Of a DNA stretch of 28,768 bases, positions 1-28,768 are shown one piece after another. This stretch comes from a virus. Made by a program: the position numbers and the translations under genes. Below the pieces are notes generated by a model that saw only the letters and a program-made list of their open reading frames with translations, was not told the DNA's origin and did no database searches. The first letter of the stretch is position 1. Each line of letters begins with the position of its first letter. The DNA is taken from the IMG/VR virus record IMGVR_UViG_3300017760_000057. One strand, written 5' to 3'.

Positions 1-123
1 ATATCAGTAGTAGAAAATCCAGCAATAGAAGAAGATTTTATTGCACTTAAATCACAAGAGTTTAAACTTGCTGAGGTAGACAAAGAGAAACGCATTTTAA
101 TGGGTGCTTTACTAATTCCAAAT
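1..123. repeat. Left copy of the exact 123-bp terminal direct repeat (identical to 28646-28768)
   Basis: Base-by-base comparison of both window ends: atatcagtagtagaaaatcc...ttactaattccaaat is present at both. Confidence 0.95.
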
Positions 124-2517: not shown

Positions 2518-3429
2518 ATGAGTGTAACAATTACAAGTTCGTATGCTGGAGAATTTGCTGGAAAATATATAGCTGCAAGTTTATTAGCTGCGAAAACAAT
2601 CGATGATGGTGCTATTACAGTATTACCTAACATCAAATACAAGGCTGCTATGAAAGTAGGAGCTTTCTCAAACTTAATTAAAGGTGCAAGTTGTGATTTC
2701 GATACAGCTACTTCAAGTTTGGCTTTAACTGAAAAGGTACTTACTCCAAAAGAGTTACAAGTAAACCTTGACATTTGCAAGAAAACACTTCACTCTGACT
2801 GGGAAGCTGCTCAAATGGGATATTCTGCATTTGATAACTTACCTCCACTATTTAGTGATTTCGTAATTTCAAGAGTTGCTGCTGAGGTTGCTTCTGCTAC
2901 AGAAACTTCTCTTTGGGATGGTGCTTCTGGTGCTGATGATTTTGATGGGTTTAGAGCTTTAGCTTTAGCTGATGGTACTGTAAATGATGTTACAGGAACT
3001 ACAGTAACTTCTGCTAACGTTGTTGCTGAACTTGGGAAAATCGTTGATGCTATTCCTTCTGGAGTATATGGTGCTGAGGATTTAAAAATATATGTATCAC
3101 AAAATATCTTTAAGGCTTATGTAAGAGCTTTAGGTGGATTTGCTGCTACTAACTCTGGTGTAGATGCTCAATCACATATGTGGTATCAAGGTGGTGCAAC
3201 TTCTTTTGATGGTGTTGATTTATACCCAACAAGTGGTTTAAGAGATAACTGTGCAATCGCAGCAAGAACTTCTAACTTATTCTTCGGAACAGGTCTATTA
3301 GATGACAGAAACGAAGTAAGAGTTATTGATATGGCTGAGAACGATGGTAGTATGAATGTGCGTATCGTTATGCGATATACTGCTGGTGTACAAATCGGTG
3401 TTGGTGCAGACGTAGTTCTTTACGATTAA
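2518..3429 (+). CDS. Major capsid protein (probably HK97-fold)
   Basis: 303 aa, Ala/Gly/Thr-rich, positioned after protease and scaffold and followed by a strong intrinsic terminator. The segment LTPKELQVNLDICKKTLHSDWEAAQM resembles capsid families I recall. Confidence 0.75.
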   Translation: MSVTITSSYAGEFAGKYIAASLLAAKTIDDGAITVLPNIKYKAAMKVGAFSNLIKGASCDFDTATSSLALTEKVLTPKELQVNLDICKKTLHSDWEAAQMGYSAFDNLPPLFSDFVISRVAAEVASATETSLWDGASGADDFDGFRALALADGTVNDVTGTTVTSANVVAELGKIVDAIPSGVYGAEDLKIYVSQNIFKAYVRALGGFAATNSGVDAQSHMWYQGGATSFDGVDLYPTSGLRDNCAIAARTSNLFFGTGLLDDRNEVRVIDMAENDGSMNVRIVMRYTAGVQIGVGADVVLYD

Positions 3430-12141: not shown

Positions 12142-12543
12142 ATGCCAAAAAAAAAGACTTTAAAATATTGGAAGAATAAGATTGATAAACCTTTTCACGA
12201 ATACATAAGACGTAGAGATGCAGATAACAATACTGGTTATTGTAGTTGTATAAGTTGTGGTAAAAAGGTACACTTTACAGAAACAGATGCTGGTCATTTT
12301 ATAGGTAGGCAACATTTAGTTACAAGATACGATGAACGTAATGTACACGCACAATGTAGAAAGTGTAATAGATTTGAGTATGGTCGTCAATATGAATATT
12401 CTATATCTTTAGGAAAAAAGTTATCTAATCAATTACTACAAAAGTCAAGAGGAGTACTAAAACTTACAGACCCAGAGTGGCAAGAAATATACGATACTTA
12501 TAAGACAAAATTAGATGAAATAAAAAAGCAACAAAACTTTTAG
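12142..12543 (+). CDS. ninG: NinG/Rap-like recombination endonuclease
   Basis: FHEYIRRRDA...CISCGK...DAGHFIGRQHLVTRYDERNVHAQCRKCN matches the lambda NinG family pattern. Confidence 0.75.
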   Translation: MPKKKTLKYWKNKIDKPFHEYIRRRDADNNTGYCSCISCGKKVHFTETDAGHFIGRQHLVTRYDERNVHAQCRKCNRFEYGRQYEYSISLGKKLSNQLLQKSRGVLKLTDPEWQEIYDTYKTKLDEIKKQQNF

Positions 12544-15204: not shown

Positions 15205-15596
15205 GTTTAATAAGAAATAGTAAACAGGTAAAACAAACTATAGATTTTACTGGCATAGAAAGTGGTAAGATACACCCTACTGACATAGATGTAGTTTTAG
15301 AATTTGACAATGAGGTTTTAATATTAATGGAAGTCAAACGCAAAGGTAACAAAATACCATTAGGTCAAAGATTAGTTTTAGAAAGAATAGCAAACTCTTG
15401 GCATACATCTAAGGTTGTTGTATTATATGTTACACACAATTTTGATAATGACAATAAAGATATTCCACTTAATAAATGTCAAGTGGACAGTATATATATG
15501 GATAAGATTTGGAAACCAGCAAAAAAAGAAATATCACTTATAAATACATTAAAAGGTTTAAGCGAATTGTGGAACATTAAAAAACTTAATTTATGA
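15201..15596 (+). CDS. Possible PD-(D/E)XK (VRR-NUC-like) nuclease
   Basis: HPTDIDVVLEFDNEVLILMEVKRKGNKIPLGQRLVLERI fits the D...E.K...Q pattern. GTG start overlapping the upstream stop as GTGA. Confidence 0.35.
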   Translation: MSLIRNSKQVKQTIDFTGIESGKIHPTDIDVVLEFDNEVLILMEVKRKGNKIPLGQRLVLERIANSWHTSKVVVLYVTHNFDNDNKDIPLNKCQVDSIYMDKIWKPAKKEISLINTLKGLSELWNIKKLNL

Positions 15597-15736
15597 GATT
15601 GGGAGATATAGTATATTACATAACAAAGTACACAGGTATAAGATGGATAGTCAAAAAGATTTTTGGAGAAGATTGTGGATGTGATGAAAGAAGAGATGAG
15701 TGGAACGATATAGATTTAGACATATGGAAAAAATAG
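15593..15736 (+). CDS. Small hypothetical protein with a CGC motif (47 aa)
   Basis: MRLGDIVYYITKYTGIRWIVKKIFGEDCGCDERRDEWNDIDLDIWKK, with an ATGA overlap. Confidence 0.35.
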   Translation: MRLGDIVYYITKYTGIRWIVKKIFGEDCGCDERRDEWNDIDLDIWKK

Positions 15737-15915
15737 ATAAAGATAACTGGAAGCAATTTAAAGCTGAGGTAAAAAGTAAACTAACACAAGACCAATATAA
15801 ACTATTGTGTGAGTTACACGCTAAATACTATAACCATAAATACCACGAGCCTTGCAGCTGTAATCCTAAAAGGTTAGTACAATGGATAGAAGACATAGAT
15901 AAGATATATGATTAA
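15724..15915 (+). CDS. Small Cys/His-containing hypothetical protein
   Basis: MEKIDKDNWKQFKAEV...KYHEPCSCNPKRLVQWIEDI. The ORF track starts at GTG 15700, and I prefer ATG 15724. Confidence 0.4.
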   Translation: MEKIDKDNWKQFKAEVKSKLTQDQYKLLCELHAKYYNHKYHEPCSCNPKRLVQWIEDIDKIYD

Positions 15916-16895: not shown

Positions 16896-17146
16896 ATCTA
16901 CTACAGAAACAAGCATACAATCAATGGTTTACTTTTTTAGCAGATAAGTTAATGGAGTGGCATAAACAAAAGCCAAACAATAAAGACATAACTAATTGTG
17001 TAAAAGCTATTACAGAGGTTGGTATGTTTAACAATACATTACTTACTGAGTTAGATATAATAACTAAAAGAGAAACCCTTGCAAGAAACGATAAGAACAA
17101 AGAGATACTAAAACTAAAAGAAGAATTAAAACAATATGAAATCTAA
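16892..17146 (+). CDS. Hypothetical protein
   Basis: 84-aa ORF with an ATGA overlap onto the upstream gene. Confidence 0.45.
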   Translation: MNLLQKQAYNQWFTFLADKLMEWHKQKPNNKDITNCVKAITEVGMFNNTLLTELDIITKRETLARNDKNKEILKLKEELKQYEI

Positions 17147-17912
17147 AATAAAATTACTTGATGGTAAATACTACGACAGAGTAGAACTATTAGAACGTAT
17201 GGAAGATGATAGCTTTTACTATGGAGAACTAAACAAGTTAGCACTTAGTAGTAGTAGCCTTAAACAACTTCTGTCAAGTCCTAAGACATATAGCTTCAGC
17301 TTGAAGTATGGTAGTGGAGATAGTGCTGCACTTAGAGCTGGTGCTTTATTCCATTGGGCAATCCTTGAGCCAGAGAAGTTTGCATCACAGAAATTTGTTG
17401 AGGTACAAAGCAGAAACACAAAGAAGTTTAAGGAAGTACAAGAAGAATTTGGTACAGCTTTTACTGCTAAGGAACGAGGAGAAGCTGATAGGCTTGTAGA
17501 TGCGTTCTACAGAAACGAACACGCAAAAGAACTAATAACTAAAGCAGAGTTTGAGATACCAGCTATAGATAATGTATTAGACTTTCCATTTAGAGGTAAA
17601 GCAGATGTATTAGCTACAAATAGAATAGTAGACCTAAAGACTACAACAAACATAAAAGACTTTAGCTGGAGTGCTAATAAGTACGGATATGACGTACAAT
17701 GCTACTTATACTGTAACTTATTCAACAAAGAGTATAAAGACTTCTACTTCCTTGTATTAGATAAAGGCTCATTAGACATAGGTATATTTAATTGTTCTGA
17801 GGAGTTTTATTACAGAGGCGAACAGAAAGTAGAGAAAGCACTTGACTTATACAACAAGTTCTTTATAGAGGGTGCAGACTTAGATAACTATTGTTTAACA
17901 GGAGAATTATGA
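17136..17912 (+). CDS. PD-(D/E)XK exonuclease (RecE C-terminal / DUF3799-like)
   Basis: ALRAGALFHWAILEPEKF and GKADVLATNRIVDLKTT...YGYDVQCYLY match the exodeoxyribonuclease-VIII-like pattern. Confidence 0.75.
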   Translation: MKSKIKLLDGKYYDRVELLERMEDDSFYYGELNKLALSSSSLKQLLSSPKTYSFSLKYGSGDSAALRAGALFHWAILEPEKFASQKFVEVQSRNTKKFKEVQEEFGTAFTAKERGEADRLVDAFYRNEHAKELITKAEFEIPAIDNVLDFPFRGKADVLATNRIVDLKTTTNIKDFSWSANKYGYDVQCYLYCNLFNKEYKDFYFLVLDKGSLDIGIFNCSEEFYYRGEQKVEKALDLYNKFFIEGADLDNYCLTGEL

Positions 17913-18508
17913 TAGCAAGTTTATTAAGCAGAATAGGTATTGAAGTATGGAGAGATATTCCAGAATATGAGGGTAGATATAAAGTTAGTAATTTAGGTAA
18001 TGTTAAAAGTTTAAATTATAACAAAACAAAGAAATCTAAAATAATGACAAAAGGTCTTAACAGCAATGGTAGATATAGAGTTGGTTTATCTAAAAATGGG
18101 AAGCATAGAGGTAATTGCAAAATATCACAGCTTGTCGCTATGGCTTTTTTAAATCATAAGCCTTGCGGTTTGAAAATGGTAGTAGACCATAAAGATAATG
18201 ATAAGTTAAATGACAGACTTTACAATTTGCAAGTAATAACAAATAGACAAAATACTTCTAAAGACAAGAGAGGTGGAACTTCAAAATATACTGGAGTATA
18301 TATGGATAAAAAAAAATGGAGAGCAGCTATAAGAATAAATGGTAAAATTAAATATCTTGGTCTTTTTACAGATGAGAAAGAAGCTGCTAAAGCATATCAA
18401 AACGAATTAAAAAAAATAAATGAAACAAAAGAAACACACACAGATACAAAGAATACTAAGATTAGAAAATGTAGTAGCTCAGCTATATGTACAGATAGAA
18501 GCTATTAA
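17909..18508 (+). mobile_element. Free-standing HNH homing endonuclease (NUMOD4 + HNH_3 + AP2 DNA-binding domain)
   Basis: EVWRDIPEYEGRYKVSNLGNVKSL (NUMOD4), VDHKDNDKLNDRLYNLQVITNRQN (HNH) and YTGVYMDKKKWRAAIRINGKIKYLGLFTDEKEAAKAY (AP2). ATG 17909 forms an ATGA overlap, whereas the ORF track starts at TTG 17891. Confidence 0.85.
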
Positions 18509-19721: not shown

Positions 19722-19991
19722 ATGGATAAGAGAGCAAACAATGGAGGTGCAAGACAAGGTGCTGGTAGAAAGACAAAACAACAAGAGCAAAAGCTAATAG
19801 AAAGGTTAGATGCAATAATAGACAAAGACGAAGCATTATCTAAATTAGGAGAGTTAGTATCTAAAGGAGATATGAGAGCTGTACAGTTATATCTAAGTTA
19901 CCGATATGGTAAACCAAAAGAAAGCGTAGATATAAATTCAAGTGAAGGCTTAAACATCAACTTTAGAGATTTAATAAAGTTCGTTGATTAA
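19722..19991 (+). CDS. terS: Putative terminase small subunit
   Basis: 89 aa with N-terminal NNGGARQGAGRK, a motif common in small terminases. It lies immediately upstream of, and overlaps, the large terminase gene. Confidence 0.5.
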   Translation: MDKRANNGGARQGAGRKTKQQEQKLIERLDAIIDKDEALSKLGELVSKGDMRAVQLYLSYRYGKPKESVDINSSEGLNINFRDLIKFVD

Positions 19992-21189
19992 TATACATAA
20001 CAAATACAAACCTATACTTAGTGAAGATAGTAGGTACTTTATAGTTAGTGGGGGTAGAGGTAGTGGAAAGTCTTTTACTATCAATGCCCTCTTAGTTATG
20101 CTTACATACGAGCAAGGACACACAATCCTGTTCACAAGATATACATTAACCTCAGCATACATATCAATCATACCAGAGTTCATAGATAAGTTAGAACTCT
20201 TTAATTGTGTACACGACTTCCATATAACAAAAGACGAGATACTAAATAAAAAGACAGGAAGCAAGATAATCTTTAGAGGTATCAAGACATCAAGTGGCGA
20301 CCAGACTGCAAACCTTAAATCTCTGCAAGGTATTACAACTTGGGTAGTAGATGAAGCTGAGGAACTAACAGACGAACAGAAGTTTGATACTATAGACTTA
20401 TCAGTAAGACAACAAGGTAAACAAAACAGAGTTATCCTAATACTAAACCCAACTACCAAAGAACACTTTATATACACACGCTTCTTTGAAGATAGAGGTG
20501 TACAAGAGGGTAGCAATACAACAAAAGAAAACACTACCTACATACACACCACATATATAGACAACATAGACAACCTATCTAAAAGCTATATAGACCAAAT
20601 AGCACAGATGAGAGAAAGACGACCAGAGAAATACAAACAACAGATGTTAGGTGCTTGGATGTCTAAAGCTGAGGGTGTTATATTTAGCAACTGGACTATA
20701 GGAGAGTTTAAAAGAAGTAGCGTAAGTGTGTGGGGTCAAGATTATGGTTTTGCTGCTGACCCATCTACATTAGTTGAGGTAAACATAGACAAAGCTAATA
20801 AAACAATATATCTAAAAGAGTGCTTTTACTTGCCAAGACTTACAACATCACAAATAGCAGACTTAAACCAGAAACACGCAAGAGATGGTTTGATAGTAGC
20901 TGATAGTGCAGAGCCAAGACTAATAACAGAACTTAAAAGACATTGTAACGTAAAGCCAAGTATAAAAGGTCAAGGAAGTGTTACATACGGAATAAGCTTA
21001 TTACAAGACTATGACTTAGTGGTAAGTCCAGATAGTACAAACCTCATCAAAGAACTAAACAACTATCGCTGGTTAGAACGCAAAAGCAATACACCAATAG
21101 ACAAATACAATCACTTGATAGATGCAGTTAGATACGCTGTAGGCTATCAATTACAAAATCCTAATAGAGGTAAGTATATTGTTCACTAA
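19984..21189 (+). CDS. terL: Terminase large subunit (PBSX/XtmB-like family)
   Basis: Walker A YFIVSGGRGSGKSF and Walker B TTWVVDEAEEL, with a C-terminal nuclease-like region. TTG 19984 is the only possible start, because two in-frame TAA codons lie at 19972-19977. Confidence 0.9.
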   Translation: MINIHNKYKPILSEDSRYFIVSGGRGSGKSFTINALLVMLTYEQGHTILFTRYTLTSAYISIIPEFIDKLELFNCVHDFHITKDEILNKKTGSKIIFRGIKTSSGDQTANLKSLQGITTWVVDEAEELTDEQKFDTIDLSVRQQGKQNRVILILNPTTKEHFIYTRFFEDRGVQEGSNTTKENTTYIHTTYIDNIDNLSKSYIDQIAQMRERRPEKYKQQMLGAWMSKAEGVIFSNWTIGEFKRSSVSVWGQDYGFAADPSTLVEVNIDKANKTIYLKECFYLPRLTTSQIADLNQKHARDGLIVADSAEPRLITELKRHCNVKPSIKGQGSVTYGISLLQDYDLVVSPDSTNLIKELNNYRWLERKSNTPIDKYNHLIDAVRYAVGYQLQNPNRGKYIVH

Positions 21190-21220
21190 AATAATTTAAA
21201 AACGTTTATATATTAGTATG
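21187..21220 (+). promoter_or_regulatory. Copy C of the repeated element, ending in the start codon of 21218
   Basis: taaaataatttaaaaacgtttatatattagtatg. Confidence 0.5.
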
Positions 21221-21874
21221 AAAGTTAATCTAAGAATACCGACAACTTTAAATGATGTAACTCTAAAACAATACCAAGAGTTTGCAAAGTTAGAAAACAA
21301 GTTAGATGATACAAATGATTCTACAATACAACTAAAGATAGTAGAGATATTTTGTAATGTTCCAGAGATAGTAGTAAGGAATATGAAAGCAACAGATATT
21401 GCTGAGGTCTGTGAAATCATAAATACTATGTTTGATGCACAACACCAGCTTATAAATAGATTTACACTTAATGGTGTGGAGTATGGGTTTATACCAGAGT
21501 TAGATGATATGAGCTTTGGAGAGTATATGGACTTAGATACCTTTATAGGCGATAATGATAATTTACATAGAGCAGTAAATGTATTGTTCAGACCAATAGA
21601 ACACAAGAGAGGGCATAGATACAAGCTAAAAGACTACGACCCAGATACAAGCGAAGATGCTAAAGATTTTCCTTTAGATGCAGTATTAGGTGCAATAGTT
21701 TTTTTTTACAATTTAGGCAAGGACTTATCTCTGGTTATGATGAACTCTTTGGAGAAGAAGAACGAGATAGCTTTAGCTCAGCATCTGCTTTCTCATCCAA
21801 ATGGGGATGGTTTAACGCACTCTATGGAATCGCTAACGGAGATATTACAAAATTTGAAAATATCACTAAACTAA
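21218..21874 (+). CDS. Tail-assembly-chaperone-like protein, zero-frame product (218 aa)
   Basis: ORF beginning at the repeated element and containing a T9 run at 21699-21707. The chaperone call rests on the frameshift architecture and loose motif recall (FGEYMDLDTFIG...LHRAVNVLFRPI). Confidence 0.45.
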   Translation: MKVNLRIPTTLNDVTLKQYQEFAKLENKLDDTNDSTIQLKIVEIFCNVPEIVVRNMKATDIAEVCEIINTMFDAQHQLINRFTLNGVEYGFIPELDDMSFGEYMDLDTFIGDNDNLHRAVNVLFRPIEHKRGHRYKLKDYDPDTSEDAKDFPLDAVLGAIVFFYNLGKDLSLVMMNSLEKKNEIALAQHLLSHPNGDGLTHSMESLTEILQNLKISLN

Positions 21875-21960
21875 ACGTACATCAATGCTTAACGTATTTA
21901 GAGTACACAAAAGAGAAAAACGAAATAGAATCAGCAAGAATTAAAAACAAGTTTAAATGA
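21218..21960 (+). CDS. Predicted -1 frameshift (or homopolymer-corrected) fusion product, 247 aa. The shift occurs at T TTT TTT (21700-21706).
   Basis: The -1 frame is open from 21664 to TGA 21958-21960 and contains no ATG, GTG or TTG. It ends in an ATGA overlap with the next gene and reads plausibly (SKWGWFNALYGIANGDITKFENITKLNVHQCLTYLEY). Confidence 0.5.
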
Positions 21961-22427
21961 GCCAAACAGGGATAAGAGGATTTTACCAATTAACAGAAAC
22001 TATTAAGACACAGCTTTTAAGTGATGTTAATGTAAACACAGTTACAACAGGGGATATATTTGATATAGACTTATCTAAGCAAAGCATATTTCCTTTATGT
22101 CATATTATCATAAACAACGTTACAACACAAGAACAAGTATTGTTGTTTAACATAACTGTTATGGCTATGGATATAGTAGACGAGAGTAAGAAAGAAACAA
22201 CAGACATATTTAGAGGTAACAACAACGAGCAAGATGTACTTAATACACAATTAGCAGTATTAAATAAGTTAGTAATGGTATTACGCAGAGGTACGCTATA
22301 TAGTGATAAGTTTCAATTAGAAGGAGATGCAACCTTAGAGCCTTTTTATGAAAGGTTTGATAATAGACTTGCTGGGTTTGCTGCTACTATGGATATTGTA
22401 ATACATAATGATATTACTATATGTTAG
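21957..22427 (+). CDS. Virion protein, possibly a head-tail joining or tail-completion protein
   Basis: 156 aa, assigned by position in the structural block only. Confidence 0.3.
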   Translation: MSQTGIRGFYQLTETIKTQLLSDVNVNTVTTGDIFDIDLSKQSIFPLCHIIINNVTTQEQVLLFNITVMAMDIVDESKKETTDIFRGNNNEQDVLNTQLAVLNKLVMVLRRGTLYSDKFQLEGDATLEPFYERFDNRLAGFAATMDIVIHNDITIC

Positions 22428-22981
22428 CAGATAAGTATTTAAGGGATGAGCTAAATAAGTTTGCTAAGTATGTTATACAACAATCAAGGACAAACTTGAC
22501 TAAAGGTGCTTCTCCTTATGGTACTTTCAATAGTACTAAAGAGTTATATAATAGTTTAGATTTTGATATAGATACAAAAGGAGATACAACATCACTATCA
22601 TTTGAAATGGCAGATTATGGTAAATTTAAAGATAGGGGTGTAAAAGGTACAAAATCTAATTATATAGAAAATAAACAATCTCCTTATAGTTTTAAATCAA
22701 AAGGTGGTAAGAGAGGTTTAAAAGGTATGCCACCACCAAAGGCATTTGATAAGTGGATAGTAAGAAAAGGCTTAAAGGGTATTAGAGATAAAAAAGGTAG
22801 ATTTTTGTCAAGAAAAACTTTACAGTTTTTAGTTGCTAAAAGTGTTTTCGAAAAAGGAATGAAAGCAAGTATGTTTTTTACAAAGCCTTTTGCTGCTGCA
22901 TTTAAGAGATTGCCAGATGAATTAGTAGAAGCATACTCAATAGGAATAGAAAAACAAATACAAGTAAACATAAGCAAATGA
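22421..22981 (+). CDS. Virion protein, possibly HK97-gp10-like
   Basis: 186 aa. SLSFEMADYGKFKDRGVKGT resembles the Y..f.e.G ending of the gp10 family. Weak. Confidence 0.3.
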   Translation: MLADKYLRDELNKFAKYVIQQSRTNLTKGASPYGTFNSTKELYNSLDFDIDTKGDTTSLSFEMADYGKFKDRGVKGTKSNYIENKQSPYSFKSKGGKRGLKGMPPPKAFDKWIVRKGLKGIRDKKGRFLSRKTLQFLVAKSVFEKGMKASMFFTKPFAAAFKRLPDELVEAYSIGIEKQIQVNISK

Positions 22982-26699: not shown

Positions 26700-26839
26700 T
26701 GATAAAGAATATATTAGAACTTTTAAAACACGCAAACGGAGAAACAGAAAACATCCGTATAGCTCAAGGTAAACATAAACTACCTTTAACTATAAAAGAG
26801 GGATATAAAGCACTTAAACAAGAAATACAATGGCGATAG
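26699..26839 (+). CDS. Small hypothetical protein (46 aa)
   Basis: MIKNILELLKHANGETENIRIAQGKHKLPLTIKEGYKALKQEIQWR. TAATG overlap upstream and a 10-nt overlap downstream. It fills an otherwise empty 130-nt gap. Confidence 0.35.
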   Translation: MIKNILELLKHANGETENIRIAQGKHKLPLTIKEGYKALKQEIQWR

Positions 26840-28557
26840 AGAAAACAATATTAATAGACGTAGATAGTAAAGATGCTCAAAAGAGTATAAACTCATTAGA
26901 CAAAGGACTTACAGGACTTGATGATAGTGCATCTAAAGGTGCTAAAGGAATTGGTGGAGTATCTAAGGCTTTTAAGGGATTAGGTACTGCTATTAAAGCT
27001 GCTGGTATTGGTTTAGTTATTGCTGCTTTAGCAAAATTGTCTGAAATATTTAAGCAAAACCAAAAAGTTGCTGATTTATTTAATACAGCATTTGAAGCAG
27101 TAAGTATTGCTTTTAATGATTTTGTTAGTTTTATTGTAGACAACTCTGGTGCAGTTGTAGATTTTTTTAAGTCAATATTTGAAAATCCTTTAGAAAGTGT
27201 TAAGGCTTTAGGTAGAAGTATTAAAGCTAATATAATAGAAAGATTTGAAAGTTTTCTTGATACTTTAGGATTTTTAGCAAGTGCAGTTAAAAAAGTATTT
27301 AGTGGAGATTTTGCTGGTGCATTAGAAGATGTAAAAAGTGCTGGTAAAGAAAGTATAGATGTTTTAACTGGTGTAAACAATACAGTAGATAAAGCTAAAG
27401 AAGTTATAGATAAAACAACAAGTTCTATTGTAGATTATACAAATAAAACTATAAAATCTGCTAAAGAAAATGTAAAACTTGCAAACGCAGCAGAGTTAGC
27501 AGCTGTTAAAAATCAAGGTCTTATTGAAAAATATGATAGACAAGCAGAACAACTTAGACAAACAAGAGATGATGAAAGTAAAAGTATTGAAGAAAGAATA
27601 AAGGCAAATGAAGATTTAGCTAAAGTTTTAGATGACCAAGAAAAAGCAATGAAAGAAAATGCAGCTATTCAAGTTGCATCTGCTGCTGCAGAATTAGCTA
27701 AAAATAAAGAAAACATAGAACTACAAAAAGCTTATGCAGAAGCCTTAAACGAACAAGCAGCAATAGAAGCTCAAATAACAGGGTTTAGAAGTGAACAACA
27801 AACAAATGCTAATTCTTTATTAAGAGAGCAAAAAGATTTACAAAACGAACTTGCTTTAATTGGTAAAAGTGAAAGAGATATACAAAGAGAAGAATTACAA
27901 CAACAATACTTAGAACAAAAAGAATTAATAGATAGAGAGGTAACAGACGAGATTGAAAAAAACAATTTATTATTAGTTGCTGAAGAAGATTATAAAACTA
28001 AACTAAAAGAATTAAATGATGGTTTTGATGCAGAAGATTTAGCTACTAAAAAAGCTAATGCTGACGCTAAAAAGAAAATTGACGATGCCACAAAAAATGC
28101 ACAGATAGAAAATGCTGAAGCTGTTGGTGGTGCTATTGGTACTTTGGCTGGTATTGCTGGAGAGAGTACTGCTGCTGGTAAAGCTTTAGGTGTTGCTTCT
28201 GCAACAATAGATACTTATGTAGGTGCAAATAAGGCAATAGCAAAAGGTGGATTTGCTGGTATTGCTCAAGCCATAGCTATTATTGCTACTGGTCTATCTA
28301 ATGTTAAAACTATATTAAGTACAAAAGTACCAAAGCCTTCTGTTGGTGGTGTATCTACTGGTGGTGGTGGAGAAGCTACTCCAGCCTTACCAGCACCCCC
28401 ATCATTTAATATAGTAGGTGCGACTGAAACAAGTCAATTAGCAGATGCTATAGGTGGTCAAACACAACAACCTGTACAAGCGTATGTAGTAGCTAATGAT
28501 GTAACAACTGCACAAAGTTTAGAGAATAATATTGTAGAGGGTGCGACATTAGGATAA
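26830..28557 (+). CDS. Tape-measure-like protein
   Basis: 575 aa with an Ala/Gly/Lys-rich N-terminus containing hydrophobic stretches, a long central coiled coil and a C-terminal hydrophobic Gly/Ala segment (GGAIGTLAGIAGESTAAGKALGVASATIDTYVGANKAIAKGGFAGIAQAIAIIATG). Confidence 0.55.
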   Translation: MAIEKTILIDVDSKDAQKSINSLDKGLTGLDDSASKGAKGIGGVSKAFKGLGTAIKAAGIGLVIAALAKLSEIFKQNQKVADLFNTAFEAVSIAFNDFVSFIVDNSGAVVDFFKSIFENPLESVKALGRSIKANIIERFESFLDTLGFLASAVKKVFSGDFAGALEDVKSAGKESIDVLTGVNNTVDKAKEVIDKTTSSIVDYTNKTIKSAKENVKLANAAELAAVKNQGLIEKYDRQAEQLRQTRDDESKSIEERIKANEDLAKVLDDQEKAMKENAAIQVASAAAELAKNKENIELQKAYAEALNEQAAIEAQITGFRSEQQTNANSLLREQKDLQNELALIGKSERDIQREELQQQYLEQKELIDREVTDEIEKNNLLLVAEEDYKTKLKELNDGFDAEDLATKKANADAKKKIDDATKNAQIENAEAVGGAIGTLAGIAGESTAAGKALGVASATIDTYVGANKAIAKGGFAGIAQAIAIIATGLSNVKTILSTKVPKPSVGGVSTGGGGEATPALPAPPSFNIVGATETSQLADAIGGQTQQPVQAYVVANDVTTAQSLENNIVEGATLG

Positions 28558-28594: not shown

Positions 28595-28768
28595 CGAATA
28601 GTAGAACTAATATTAGACGAAGAACAAGAGATAGGGATAGAAGCTATATCAGTAGTAGAAAATCCAGCAATAGAAGAAGATTTTATTGCACTTAAATCAC
28701 AAGAGTTTAAACTTGCTGAGGTAGACAAAGAGAAACGCATTTTAATGGGTGCTTTACTAATTCCAAAT
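28592..28768 (+). CDS. 5' part of the XkdF-like protease gene, continuing at base 124 of the window via the repeat
   Basis: ATG 28592 gives MRIVELILDEEQEIGIEAISVVENPAIEEDF..., which runs in frame into the terminal repeat and on to the 1-1158 ORF. Confidence 0.6.
   Translation, partial: MRIVELILDEEQEIGIEAISVVENPAIEEDFIALKSQEFKLAEVDKEKRILMGALLIPN
28646..28768. repeat. Right copy of the exact 123-bp terminal direct repeat (identical to 1-123)
   Basis: Same comparison. The implied unit length is 28,645 bp. Confidence 0.95.

What the first reader, a model, noticed from the sequence alone, without database searches (positions are those of the whole stretch)
21664..21960. T9 slippery run with a 98-codon start-less -1 ORF: programmed frameshift or homopolymer error
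In the zero frame the gene reads GTT TTT TTT TAC, so T TTT TTT (21700-21706) is a canonical X XXY YYZ -1 slippery heptamer.
- The -1 frame is open from 21664 to TGA 21958-21960 and contains no ATG, GTG or TTG.
- It encodes a protein-like sequence (..SKWGWFNALYGIANGDITKFENITKLNVHQCLTYLEYTKEKNEIESARIKNKFK).
- It terminates in the same ATGA overlap with the next gene (21957) that most genes here use.
- The zero-frame stop at 21874 instead leaves an atypical 82-nt gap.
This is the G/GT-type architecture of tail assembly chaperones, yielding 218-aa and 247-aa products. However, the gene lies right after the large terminase and four genes upstream of the tape-measure-like gene, which is not the canonical position. 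Equally possible is that the true sequence has T10 and encodes a single 247-aa protein.
Basis: seen in the sequence. Interest (0 to 1): 0.75.

Follow-up and report, generated by a model that had tools for sequence, protein, structure and literature searches.

The report
Conserved programmed -1 frameshift in phage gene
A run of nine T's inside a phage assembly-module gene is a real, evolutionarily conserved "slippery" site where some ribosomes shift back one base, so one gene makes two proteins (218 and 247 aa) with the same front half and different tails; it is not a sequencing error, but whether the protein is a tail assembly chaperone is unproven.

Summary
The homopolymer-error reading is rejected. 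222 independent public contigs, down to 28% protein identity, need the same -1 shift at the same codon and carry T9 or T10 there. Eight further contigs of GC-richer lineages need the same shift at the homologous position but have no long T run. Four of these carry other canonical heptamers (T_TTT_TTC, T_TTT_TTA, G_GGT_TTT). The -1 tail is a conserved helical domain that AlphaFold2 models confidently. One lineage encodes the fusion in a single frame. The zero-frame tail is kept free of stops for 54-61 codons, far beyond expectation, so about 55 codons are dual-coding. Slip-site turnover in the correct codon phase points to ribosomal -1 frameshifting. No conserved downstream RNA structure was found, and transcriptional slippage on T9 may add to the shift here. 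The protein family is very large (1925 clusters at 50% identity), almost wholly uncultured, and has no Pfam, NCBIfam or PDB relative. It lies after the large terminase, beside a neck/tail-completion-like gene and about 5 kb upstream of the tape-measure-like gene. It is expressed like lambda G/GT, but membership in the tail assembly chaperone family is not shown. In the only cultured relatives, Nonlabens phages P12024L and P12024S, it is annotated as two separate hypothetical genes.

The parts
21218..21874 (+). Zero-frame ORF of gene X (218 aa): an acidic N-terminal domain (residues 1-163, pI 4.6) plus a 55-aa zero-frame tail
   Evidence: It matches phrog_32199 (unknown function) at E 4e-19 over residues 4-179. 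Hundreds of 218-aa homologues come from independent assemblies.
21699..21707 (+). T9 run containing the slippery heptamer T_TTT_TTT (21700-21706) in zero-frame phase X_XXY_YYZ
   Evidence: T9 or T10 sits at the homologous codon in 222 contigs that need the shift. In GC-richer lineages it is replaced by T_TTT_TTC, T_TTT_TTA or G_GGT_TTT, by A_AAT_TTT (canonical in form, one contig), or by a bare T_TTT core.
21706..21960 (+). -1 frame extension: 84 codons plus TGA, encoding the helical C-terminal domain of the 247-aa product (KWGW...GDITKF...KEKNEIE)
   Evidence: The tail is conserved down to 28% identity. AF2 pLDDT is about 89-93 for residues 201-240 of the fusion. One lineage (L080-L083) encodes it in frame.
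21664..21960 (+). Full extent of the start-less -1 ORF (98 sense codons)
   Evidence: no ATG, GTG or TTG. The longest comparable open run in 39 other genes is 45 codons.
21707..21874 (+). Dual-coding overlap, with both the zero and the -1 frame open and constrained
   Evidence: Wobble diversity is suppressed in both frames: pi 0.099/0.176/0.187, against 0.427 and 0.308 at the wobble position of the flanking single-coding parts. Synonymous resampling of the -1 tail predicts a zero-frame stop after a median of 5 codons. Observed open runs are 54-61 codons, P 0 (none of 5000 resamples) to 0.024 in 15 of 16 lineages.
19984..21189 (+). Large terminase, the upstream neighbour (context)
   Evidence: Pfam Terminase_3 and Terminase_3C. 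It lies upstream of X in relatives, directly adjacent or with a 0.4-2 kb insert.
21957..22427 (+). Conserved downstream gene (156 aa), syntenic with X (context)
   Evidence: phrog_30964, unknown function. It is downstream of X together with the 186-aa gene in 217 of 243 loci. It is homologous to P12024L gp42.
22421..22981 (+). Conserved downstream gene (186 aa), weakly similar to tail completion / Neck1 (HK97 gp10-like) proteins (context)
   Evidence: phrog_5 'tail completion or Neck1 protein' matches 2 of 14 homologues, best E 4e-4. Pfam HK97-gp10_like matches one homologue at E 0.032. The evidence is weak.
26830..28557 (+). Tape-measure-like protein (575 aa), about 5 kb downstream (context)
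   Evidence: It matches tape-measure PHROGs 3336 (E 3e-14) and 339 (E 1.6e-7). It is homologous to P12024L gp50.

Best explanation
Gene X (21218..21874) carries a conserved programmed -1 frameshift site.

**What the sequence implies.** Ribosomes that keep the zero frame make a 218-aa protein. It consists of the N-domain, a continuation of its last helix, and a poorly ordered tail. Ribosomes with tRNA-Phe in the P and A sites on T_TTT_TTT (21700-21706) can slip back one base and read 84 more codons to TGA 21958-21960. The result is a 247-aa protein with the same N-domain fused to a small helical C-terminal domain.

**Shown.** The two-frame architecture, the slip site and both tails are conserved and under selection.

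**Inferred.** The shift is ribosomal, because relatives use other slip sites in the correct codon phase. On the T9 run of this phage, RNA polymerase slippage (U9 to U10) may add to the shifted product. The efficiency of the shift is unknown.

**Function (inferred, about 50%).** A non-virion assembly factor of the neck/tail module, used in a set ratio of short to long form, as with lambda gpG and gpGT.
For: **Conservation of the shift**
- In the window's clade, 65 of 66 full-length loci have a match length of 3n-1 and T9 or T10 at the same codon phase.
- A clade at 45% identity shows 77 of 77 loci with T9.
- A diverse set at 36-46% identity shows 78 of 78 loci with T9 or T10.
- Nonlabens phages P12024L and P12024S, at 28% identity, have T9 and the same -1 tail. 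The tail is annotated there as separate genes gp40 and gp41.

**Slip-site turnover at the homologous position, in zero-frame phase**
- L247: T_TTT_TTC. L248 and L249 (two samples): G_GGT_TTT. L253: T_TTT_TTA. L250: A_AAT_TTT.
- L252 and L254 keep only the T_TTT core.
- Where compared (L247, L248, L250), the -1 tail is homologous to the window's, blastp E 1e-19 to 1e-26. The L252-L254 tails show the same motifs on reading.

**The long form is a real protein**
- Lineage L080-L083 encodes a 258-aa in-frame fusion with no T run, and its other frames are full of stops.
- AF2 of the fusion gives pLDDT 86.6 and pTM 0.80, with a confident C-domain.

**Both frames are constrained**
- Codon-phase diversity is suppressed in both frames across the overlap.
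- The zero frame is kept open far beyond expectation.
- The slip site lies inside a helix that AF2 continues in either frame.

**No independent start**
- The -1 ORF has no start codon.
Against: - There is no expression data, so the shift and its efficiency are not observed directly.
- RNAalifold finds no conserved downstream stimulatory structure in 25 diverse sequences (0 pairs). Such structures are common, though not obligatory, for -1 frameshifting.
- In AT-rich lineages the run is always 9 or longer and appears in three codon phases. This length is where RNA polymerase slippage becomes efficient (review PMC5009743). The mechanism in this particular phage could therefore be partly or mainly transcriptional.
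- L252 and L254 have no canonical heptamer, only T_TTT. L251 has an interrupted run. Each is a single contig.
- The functional assignment lacks any homology support, and the in-frame lineage shows the short form is dispensable there.
Confidence: 0.78

Rival explanations
1. The shift in this phage is made mainly by RNA polymerase. Transcriptional slippage on the T9 run adds one U, giving U10 mRNA. Standard translation of the edited mRNA then yields the 247-aa protein.
For: - All 222 AT-rich loci keep a run of 9 or more T's. It occurs in phase 1 (T9 or T10), phase 0 (T10) or phase 2 (T9).
- Among 50%-cluster representatives, residues flanking FF covary so that a run of 9 or more stays possible in 125 of 131. 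Fisher p = 5e-9, not corrected for phylogeny.
- Nine A's or T's is the length at which bacterial RNA polymerase slips efficiently. Thermus dnaX and Shigella mxiE use such runs (PMC5009743).
- No conserved RNA structure follows the site.
Against: - Related lineages keep the two-frame architecture with only T4-T6 runs, several inside canonical heptamers. Polymerase slippage should be negligible on such short runs.
- The flanking T's of T9 are also explained by coding. The preceding residue is V, L or I. The following -1 frame residue is L or F.
- The covariation may come from a single clade.
Confidence: 0.15
2. Homopolymer sequencing or assembly error: the true genome has T10 and encodes a single 247-aa protein.
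For: - Rare contigs do carry the in-frame form, for example L003 with T10, which encodes P0001.
- Some 50%-cluster representatives are in-frame with an FFL junction.
Against: - 222 independent contigs from many samples and assemblers agree on a genome that needs the shift.
- The exact relatives of in-frame representative P0122 have T9.
- Eight contigs of non-homopolymer lineages also need a -1 shift.
- The zero-frame tail is kept open by selection. That would be pointless if the tail were never translated.
Confidence: 0.02
3. DNA-level phase variation: replication slippage makes a mixed phage population of T9 and T10 genomes. Each genome makes one form, and no recoding is needed.
For: - Occasional T10, T8-like and indel variants occur among metagenomic contigs. 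Examples are P0001, P0017, P0003, P0055 and P0058.
Against: - Such variants make up a few per cent of the protein clusters listed (6 of 120).
- The consensus is T9 everywhere.
- Lineages with non-homopolymer slip sites cannot phase-vary.
- If both forms are needed in one infected cell, population heterogeneity would not supply them.
Confidence: 0.03
4. Only the zero-frame 218-aa protein is made. The -1 ORF is a relic or a separately initiated small gene, as annotated for gp41 of P12024L.
For: - GenBank annotates gp40 and gp41 as separate genes.
- P12024L has an ATG inside the -1 ORF.
Against: - The window's -1 ORF has no ATG, GTG or TTG.
- Conservation of the -1 frame begins right at the slip site, upstream of the P12024L ATG.
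- In-frame fusions exist.
- AF2 models the -1 tail as a confident helical domain following the N-domain.
Confidence: 0.02

Closest known systems
Lambda gpG/gpGT and the conserved tail assembly chaperone frameshift of tailed phages (Levin 1993 and Xu 2004, as summarised in PMC5009743)
   Same: - A -1 shift at a heptamer inside a small acidic morphogenesis-module gene gives two proteins with a common N-terminus and a longer minor form.
- No strong conserved stimulatory RNA structure is present.
- The frameshift is conserved across very divergent sequences while the slip sequence itself changes.
   Different: - The gene is not located between the major tail and tape measure genes. It follows the terminase and precedes neck-like genes.
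- There is no sequence or fold similarity to any Phage_TAC family or to any PDB chain.
- The slip site is 55 codons, not a few, before the zero-frame stop, and that overlap is kept open by selection.
- One lineage has only the fused form.
Transcriptional slippage sites: Thermus thermophilus dnaX (run of nine) and Shigella mxiE (PMC5009743)
   Same: A homopolymer run of nine A's or T's inside a coding sequence, from which a frame-shifted extended product arises.
   Different: Relatives of the window gene achieve the same shift with T4-T6 runs inside ribosomal heptamers, so the run is not required family-wide.
T7 gene 10A/10B and other capsid or tail-tube C-terminal extension frameshifts (Listeria PSA and A500, SPP1 gp17.1*); from my own knowledge
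   Same: Frameshifting adds an alternative C-terminal extension to a phage morphogenesis protein.
   Different: - Those proteins are major virion components with recognisable capsid or tube folds.
- Gene X has neither fold.
- In this genome the candidate capsid gene (2518..3429) and the portal gene lie elsewhere.
HIV-1 and alphavirus U_UUU_UUA -1 sites; from my own knowledge
   Same: The slippery sequence is U-rich, and L253 carries exactly T_TTT_TTA. tRNA-Phe re-pairs in the -1 frame.
   Different: The viral sites depend on a downstream stem-loop or pseudoknot. None is conserved here.

Membership tests
Tail assembly chaperone G/GT (Xu et al. 2004 definition) | Two overlapping ORFs joined by a programmed frameshift, giving short and long proteins with a common N-terminus | tested here: met
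Tail assembly chaperone G/GT (Xu et al. 2004 definition) | Gene pair lies between the major tail protein gene and the tape measure gene | tested here: not met
   The gene directly follows the large terminase. Five ORFs (about 5 kb) separate it from the tape-measure-like gene 26830..28557. The layout is the same in P12024L. In other lineages it follows a Cys-rich 144-aa protein.
Tail assembly chaperone G/GT (Xu et al. 2004 definition) | [quoted passage not shown] | tested here: not met
   The zero frame continues for 55 codons in the window and 54-61 in most lineages. It continues for 25 in P12024L.
Tail assembly chaperone G/GT (Xu et al. 2004 definition) | Sequence or fold similarity to a recognised chaperone family (Pfam Phage_TAC_*, solved chaperone structures) | tested here: not met
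   Pfam and NCBIfam give no hit. Among 23 family members there is a single Phage_TAC_7 hit at E 0.15. Foldseek against the PDB gives a best E of 0.41-2.4. A profile search against PDB sequences finds nothing. The only hint is phrog_166 'tail protein' in 7 of 23 members, best E 0.006.
Tail assembly chaperone G/GT (Xu et al. 2004 definition) | Binds the tape measure protein (common part) and the major tail protein (extension), is absent from virions, and both forms are required | not testable with these tools
   This needs pull-downs, virion proteomics and genetics. The in-frame-only lineage L080-L083 argues that the short form is not universally required.
Canonical -1 programmed ribosomal frameshift site | X_XXY_YYZ heptamer in the zero-frame phase | tested here: met
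   The window has T_TTT_TTT at 21700-21706. Homologous sites are T_TTT_TTC, T_TTT_TTA, G_GGT_TTT and A_AAT_TTT. Two single-contig lineages keep only T_TTT.
Canonical -1 programmed ribosomal frameshift site | Downstream stimulatory hairpin or pseudoknot, or an upstream Shine-Dalgarno-like element | tested here: not met
   RNAalifold on 25 diverse sequences predicts 0 pairs. Single-sequence folds differ between relatives. An upstream Shine-Dalgarno-like element was not examined.
Programmed transcriptional slippage site | Homopolymer A or T run of about 9 or more, conserved as a run regardless of codon phase | tested here: inconclusive
   The feature is met in 222 AT-rich loci, across three phases. 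It is absent in eight contigs of GC-richer lineages that keep the shift.

The most novel reading that the evidence does not exclude
Gene X is not a tail assembly chaperone. It founds a new, very large family of recoded phage morphogenesis proteins. In this reading the 55-60-codon overlap is truly dual-coding, and both alternative C-termini are functional. One is a folded helical domain in the -1 frame. The other is a selected, flexible tail in the zero frame. The ratio of the two forms would be set by combined ribosomal and, on T9, transcriptional slippage.
Probability: 0.3. Interest if true: 0.65.

Novelty: new member of a known kind. Interest (0 to 1): 0.5.

Why it matters
- **Annotation.** A family of about 1,900 protein clusters (50% identity) in uncultured aquatic phages is mis-annotated. 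It appears as a truncated protein, or as two separate genes (gp40 and gp41) in the reference phages P12024L and P12024S. Annotating the frameshift recovers a conserved C-terminal domain that gene callers never see.
- **Recoding biology.** The family offers a natural series of slip sites at one homologous position: T9, T10, T_TTT_TTC, T_TTT_TTA, G_GGT_TTT, A_AAT_TTT and bare T_TTT, plus a fused lineage. This could show how frameshift sites turn over with genome GC content, and how ribosomal and transcriptional slippage combine.
- **Phage assembly.** If the protein is the tail chaperone of these siphoviruses, the 'always between the major tail and tape measure genes' rule used by annotation pipelines fails for this group.

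Tried and rejected
**Function by homology: nothing found**
- Pfam, NCBIfam and PHROGs give no annotated family for X.
- A profile search against PDB sequences finds nothing.
- Foldseek of both AF2 models against the PDB gives no hit with E below 0.4.
- Foldseek against BFVD returns only uncharacterised proteins.

**Stimulatory RNA structure: none conserved**
- Single-sequence folds are inconsistent between relatives.
- RNAalifold predicts 0 pairs.

**Annotated relatives**
- tblastn of three family members against 50,697 phage records finds only the two Nonlabens phages.

**Prophage or host search**
- A genome-contig scan with P0001 found nothing.

**Scans that found nothing**
- P0247 and P0182 in viral contigs.
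- P0253 in viral and metagenome contigs. It was later recovered by an exact look-up.

**Technical failures**
- Profile searches of the neighbours (156 and 186 aa) against the PDB were not significant.
- The P12024 genome announcement (PMC3421731) is not held.

**An argument I weakened**
- I first read the flanking-residue covariation as proof that a run length of 9 or more is selected, and hence that slippage is transcriptional.
- I downgraded this after finding lineages with short runs and canonical heptamers. The covariation may also reflect a single clade.

Full report
**1. The observation**

The sequence is as described.
- Gene X, 21218..21874 on the + strand, encodes 218 aa.
- Its zero frame reads GTT TTT TTT TAC. 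T9 lies at 21699-21707 and T_TTT_TTT at 21700-21706.
- The -1 frame is open from 21664, just after TAA 21661-21663, to TGA 21958-21960.
- That frame contains no ATG, GTG or TTG.
- Its stop overlaps the start of the next gene (21957) as ATGA.
- Slipping after codon 163 gives a 247-aa protein.

This is well beyond chance.
- In 39 other genes of the window, off-frame stop codons occur at 11-13% of codons. The longest open -1-frame run is 45 codons, against 98 here.
- This is the only T run of 9 or more in the window.

**2. Not a homopolymer error**

A protein search with the fused sequence returned 820 relatives. Most are 218-aa zero-frame forms from many independent assemblies.

I then fetched DNA for relatives.
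- In the window's own clade, 65 of 66 full-length loci have a match length of 3n-1. They carry T9, or T10 followed by G, at the same codon phase. Only L003 is in frame, with T10.
- A clade at 45% identity gave 77 of 77 loci with T9. This includes the exact relatives of an in-frame cluster representative (P0122), which is therefore a rare variant.
- A diverse set at 36-46% identity gave 78 of 78 loci with T9 or T10.
- The only cultured relatives are Nonlabens (Persicivirga) phages P12024L and P12024S, at 28% identity. They have CTT TTT TTT TAT and the same -1 tail with its KWGW motif. GenBank annotates this as two genes, gp40 and gp41.

**3. The long form is real**

- The -1 tail is conserved from the first codon after the slip site.
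- One lineage (L080-L083) has four contigs at 69-98% identity to the query. It encodes a 258-aa fusion in a single frame with no T run, and its other frames are full of stops.
- AlphaFold2 on a 23-sequence alignment gave pLDDT 86.6 and pTM 0.80. The model has an alpha/beta N-domain, a disordered linker at 181-188, and a confident helical C-domain.
- The slip site lies inside helix 153-173.

**4. The short form's tail also looks selected**

- Nucleotide diversity by codon position is 0.175/0.130/0.427 upstream of the site.
- After the zero-frame stop it is 0.112/0.308/0.128. There, the middle position is the -1 wobble.
- In the overlap it is only 0.099/0.176/0.187. Both wobble positions are suppressed.
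- I resampled synonymous codons of the -1 tail using the phage's own codon usage. This predicts a zero-frame stop after a median of 5 codons.
- The observed 54-61 open codons have P from 0 (none of 5000 resamples) to 0.024 in 15 of 16 lineages. P12024L, with 24 open codons beyond the first, is the exception.
- AF2 of the 218-aa product (97 sequences) continues the helix confidently for about 17 residues past the site. It then gives low confidence, with block means of 49-66.
- My reading is that the first part of the zero-frame tail completes the N-domain. The rest is a selected but probably flexible extension. Why it is kept open is unexplained.

**5. Mechanism**

RNAalifold on 25 diverse sequences finds no conserved structure downstream.

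At first the evidence suggested transcriptional slippage.
- The run of 9 or more T's is invariant and occurs in three codon phases.
- Flanking residues covary so that a run of 9 or more stays possible.
- Bacterial RNA polymerase slips efficiently on runs of nine (PMC5009743).

Exact look-ups of GC-richer family members changed this. At the homologous position, in the correct zero-frame phase, they carry:
- AG T_TTT_TTC (L247)
- GT G_GGT_TTT (L248 and L249, from two samples)
- TT A_AAT_TTT (L250)
- GA T_TTT_TTA (L253)
- GAT_TTT_A (L252) and CTT_TTT_A (L254), which keep only the T_TTT core

Each has a conserved -1 tail. Where compared with the window's (L247, L248, L250), blastp gives E 1e-19 to 1e-26.

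Turnover among X_XXY_YYZ heptamers in phase is the signature of ribosomal -1 frameshifting. Runs of T4-T6 are too short for efficient polymerase slippage. I therefore rank ribosomal slippage first for the family. For this T9 phage, a transcriptional contribution remains open.

**6. What the protein is**

Homology gives no function.
- There is no Pfam or NCBIfam hit, and the PHROG match is to a family of unknown function.
- There is no PDB relative by sequence or by fold.
- BFVD matches are all uncharacterised proteins.
- HMMER against 1.84 billion cluster representatives finds 1925 clusters at E up to 1e-3.

Genomic context gives some leads.
- The window is a circular assembly of about 28.6 kb, with a 123-nt terminal repeat.
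- The gene order is TerS-like, TerL, X, 156 aa, 186 aa, 372 aa, 867 aa (fn3), 46 aa, 575 aa (tape-measure-like). It continues with an XkdF-type protease, a coiled-coil protein, the candidate capsid protein, the portal and the fibres.
- The 156-aa and 186-aa genes follow X in 217 of 243 loci.
- The 186-aa protein weakly matches tail completion / Neck1 (HK97 gp10-like) families.
- The Nonlabens phages are reported as siphoviruses (PMC8776804). They should therefore need a tail assembly chaperone. X is the only recoded gene in the conserved structural core.
- The N-domain is acidic, with pI 4.6.

This makes a chaperone-like role plausible, at roughly 50%. However, three of the four testable defining features of the G/GT family are not met: position, slip site near the ORF end, and homology. 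The fused lineage also shows that the short form can be dispensed with.

**7. Verdict**

This is a real, conserved and previously unannotated programmed -1 frameshift. It is expressed like G/GT. It sits in a very large uncharacterised family of aquatic (likely Flavobacteriia-infecting) phage proteins. It has an unusually long, selected dual-coding overlap and a natural series of alternative slip sites. In kind it is a known phenomenon, so interest is moderate.

Noticed in passing
window 1-123 and 28646-28768: There is an exact 123-nt direct repeat at the two ends of the window. The window is therefore a circular assembly of a complete genome of about 28,645 bp. The XkdF-type protease gene (homologue of P12024L gp01) spans the junction.
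   Followed up: yes
window 15593-15915: A Cys-rich protein of about 144 aa (CGCD...PCTC) lies directly upstream of gene X in GC-richer lineages. In the window its homologue is split into two ORFs in a -1 relation. They overlap at ...TGG AAA AAA TAG, with the second ORF starting at ATG GAA AAA ATA. This is either a split gene or a second recoding site (an A6 run followed by a stop).
   Followed up: partly
window 12147-12155 and 18308-18316: There are two A9 runs inside coding sequence, at Lys-rich stretches MPKKKT and DKKKW. The alternative frames close quickly, so slippage there would only truncate the products.
   Followed up: partly
window 17305-17496: A 64-codon stop-free run lies in the +1 frame inside gene 17136..17912. 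It is the longest off-frame open run in the window apart from gene X, and an ATG ORF 17308..17499 is listed there.
   Followed up: no
L025 5225-6000, L075 4024-6000, L035 2550-3073 and other relatives: In the window the terminase and gene X are 28 nt apart. Many relatives carry 0.4-2 kb of variable inserted genes between them. One example is a 247-aa ORF whose DPPY motif suggests, on my own reading, a DNA methyltransferase. This junction looks like a hotspot for accessory genes.
   Followed up: partly
P0001 (contig L003), P0003, P0017, P0055, P0058: Rare metagenomic variants of gene X exist. They include T10 (in-frame fusion), a T8-like form (truncated after ..VFFTI), an indel a few codons upstream, and internal deletions that join the zero frame to the -1 C-terminus. 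They could be assembly errors or real population heterogeneity at the homopolymer.
   Followed up: partly
L251 about 960-975 (protein P0138): One AT-rich contig has the T9 interrupted by a C (GTT TTT TCT TAC) while keeping both frames intact. It is either a dead or weak slip site or a read error.
   Followed up: no
all lineages, 5-10 nt after the slip site (window 21712-21717): The hexamer TTTAGG or TTAGGG is nearly invariant after the slip site in every lineage. It is forced by Leu-Gly in the zero frame together with Phe/Val-Arg(AGG) in the -1 frame. Whether it also acts as a signal is unknown.
   Followed up: no
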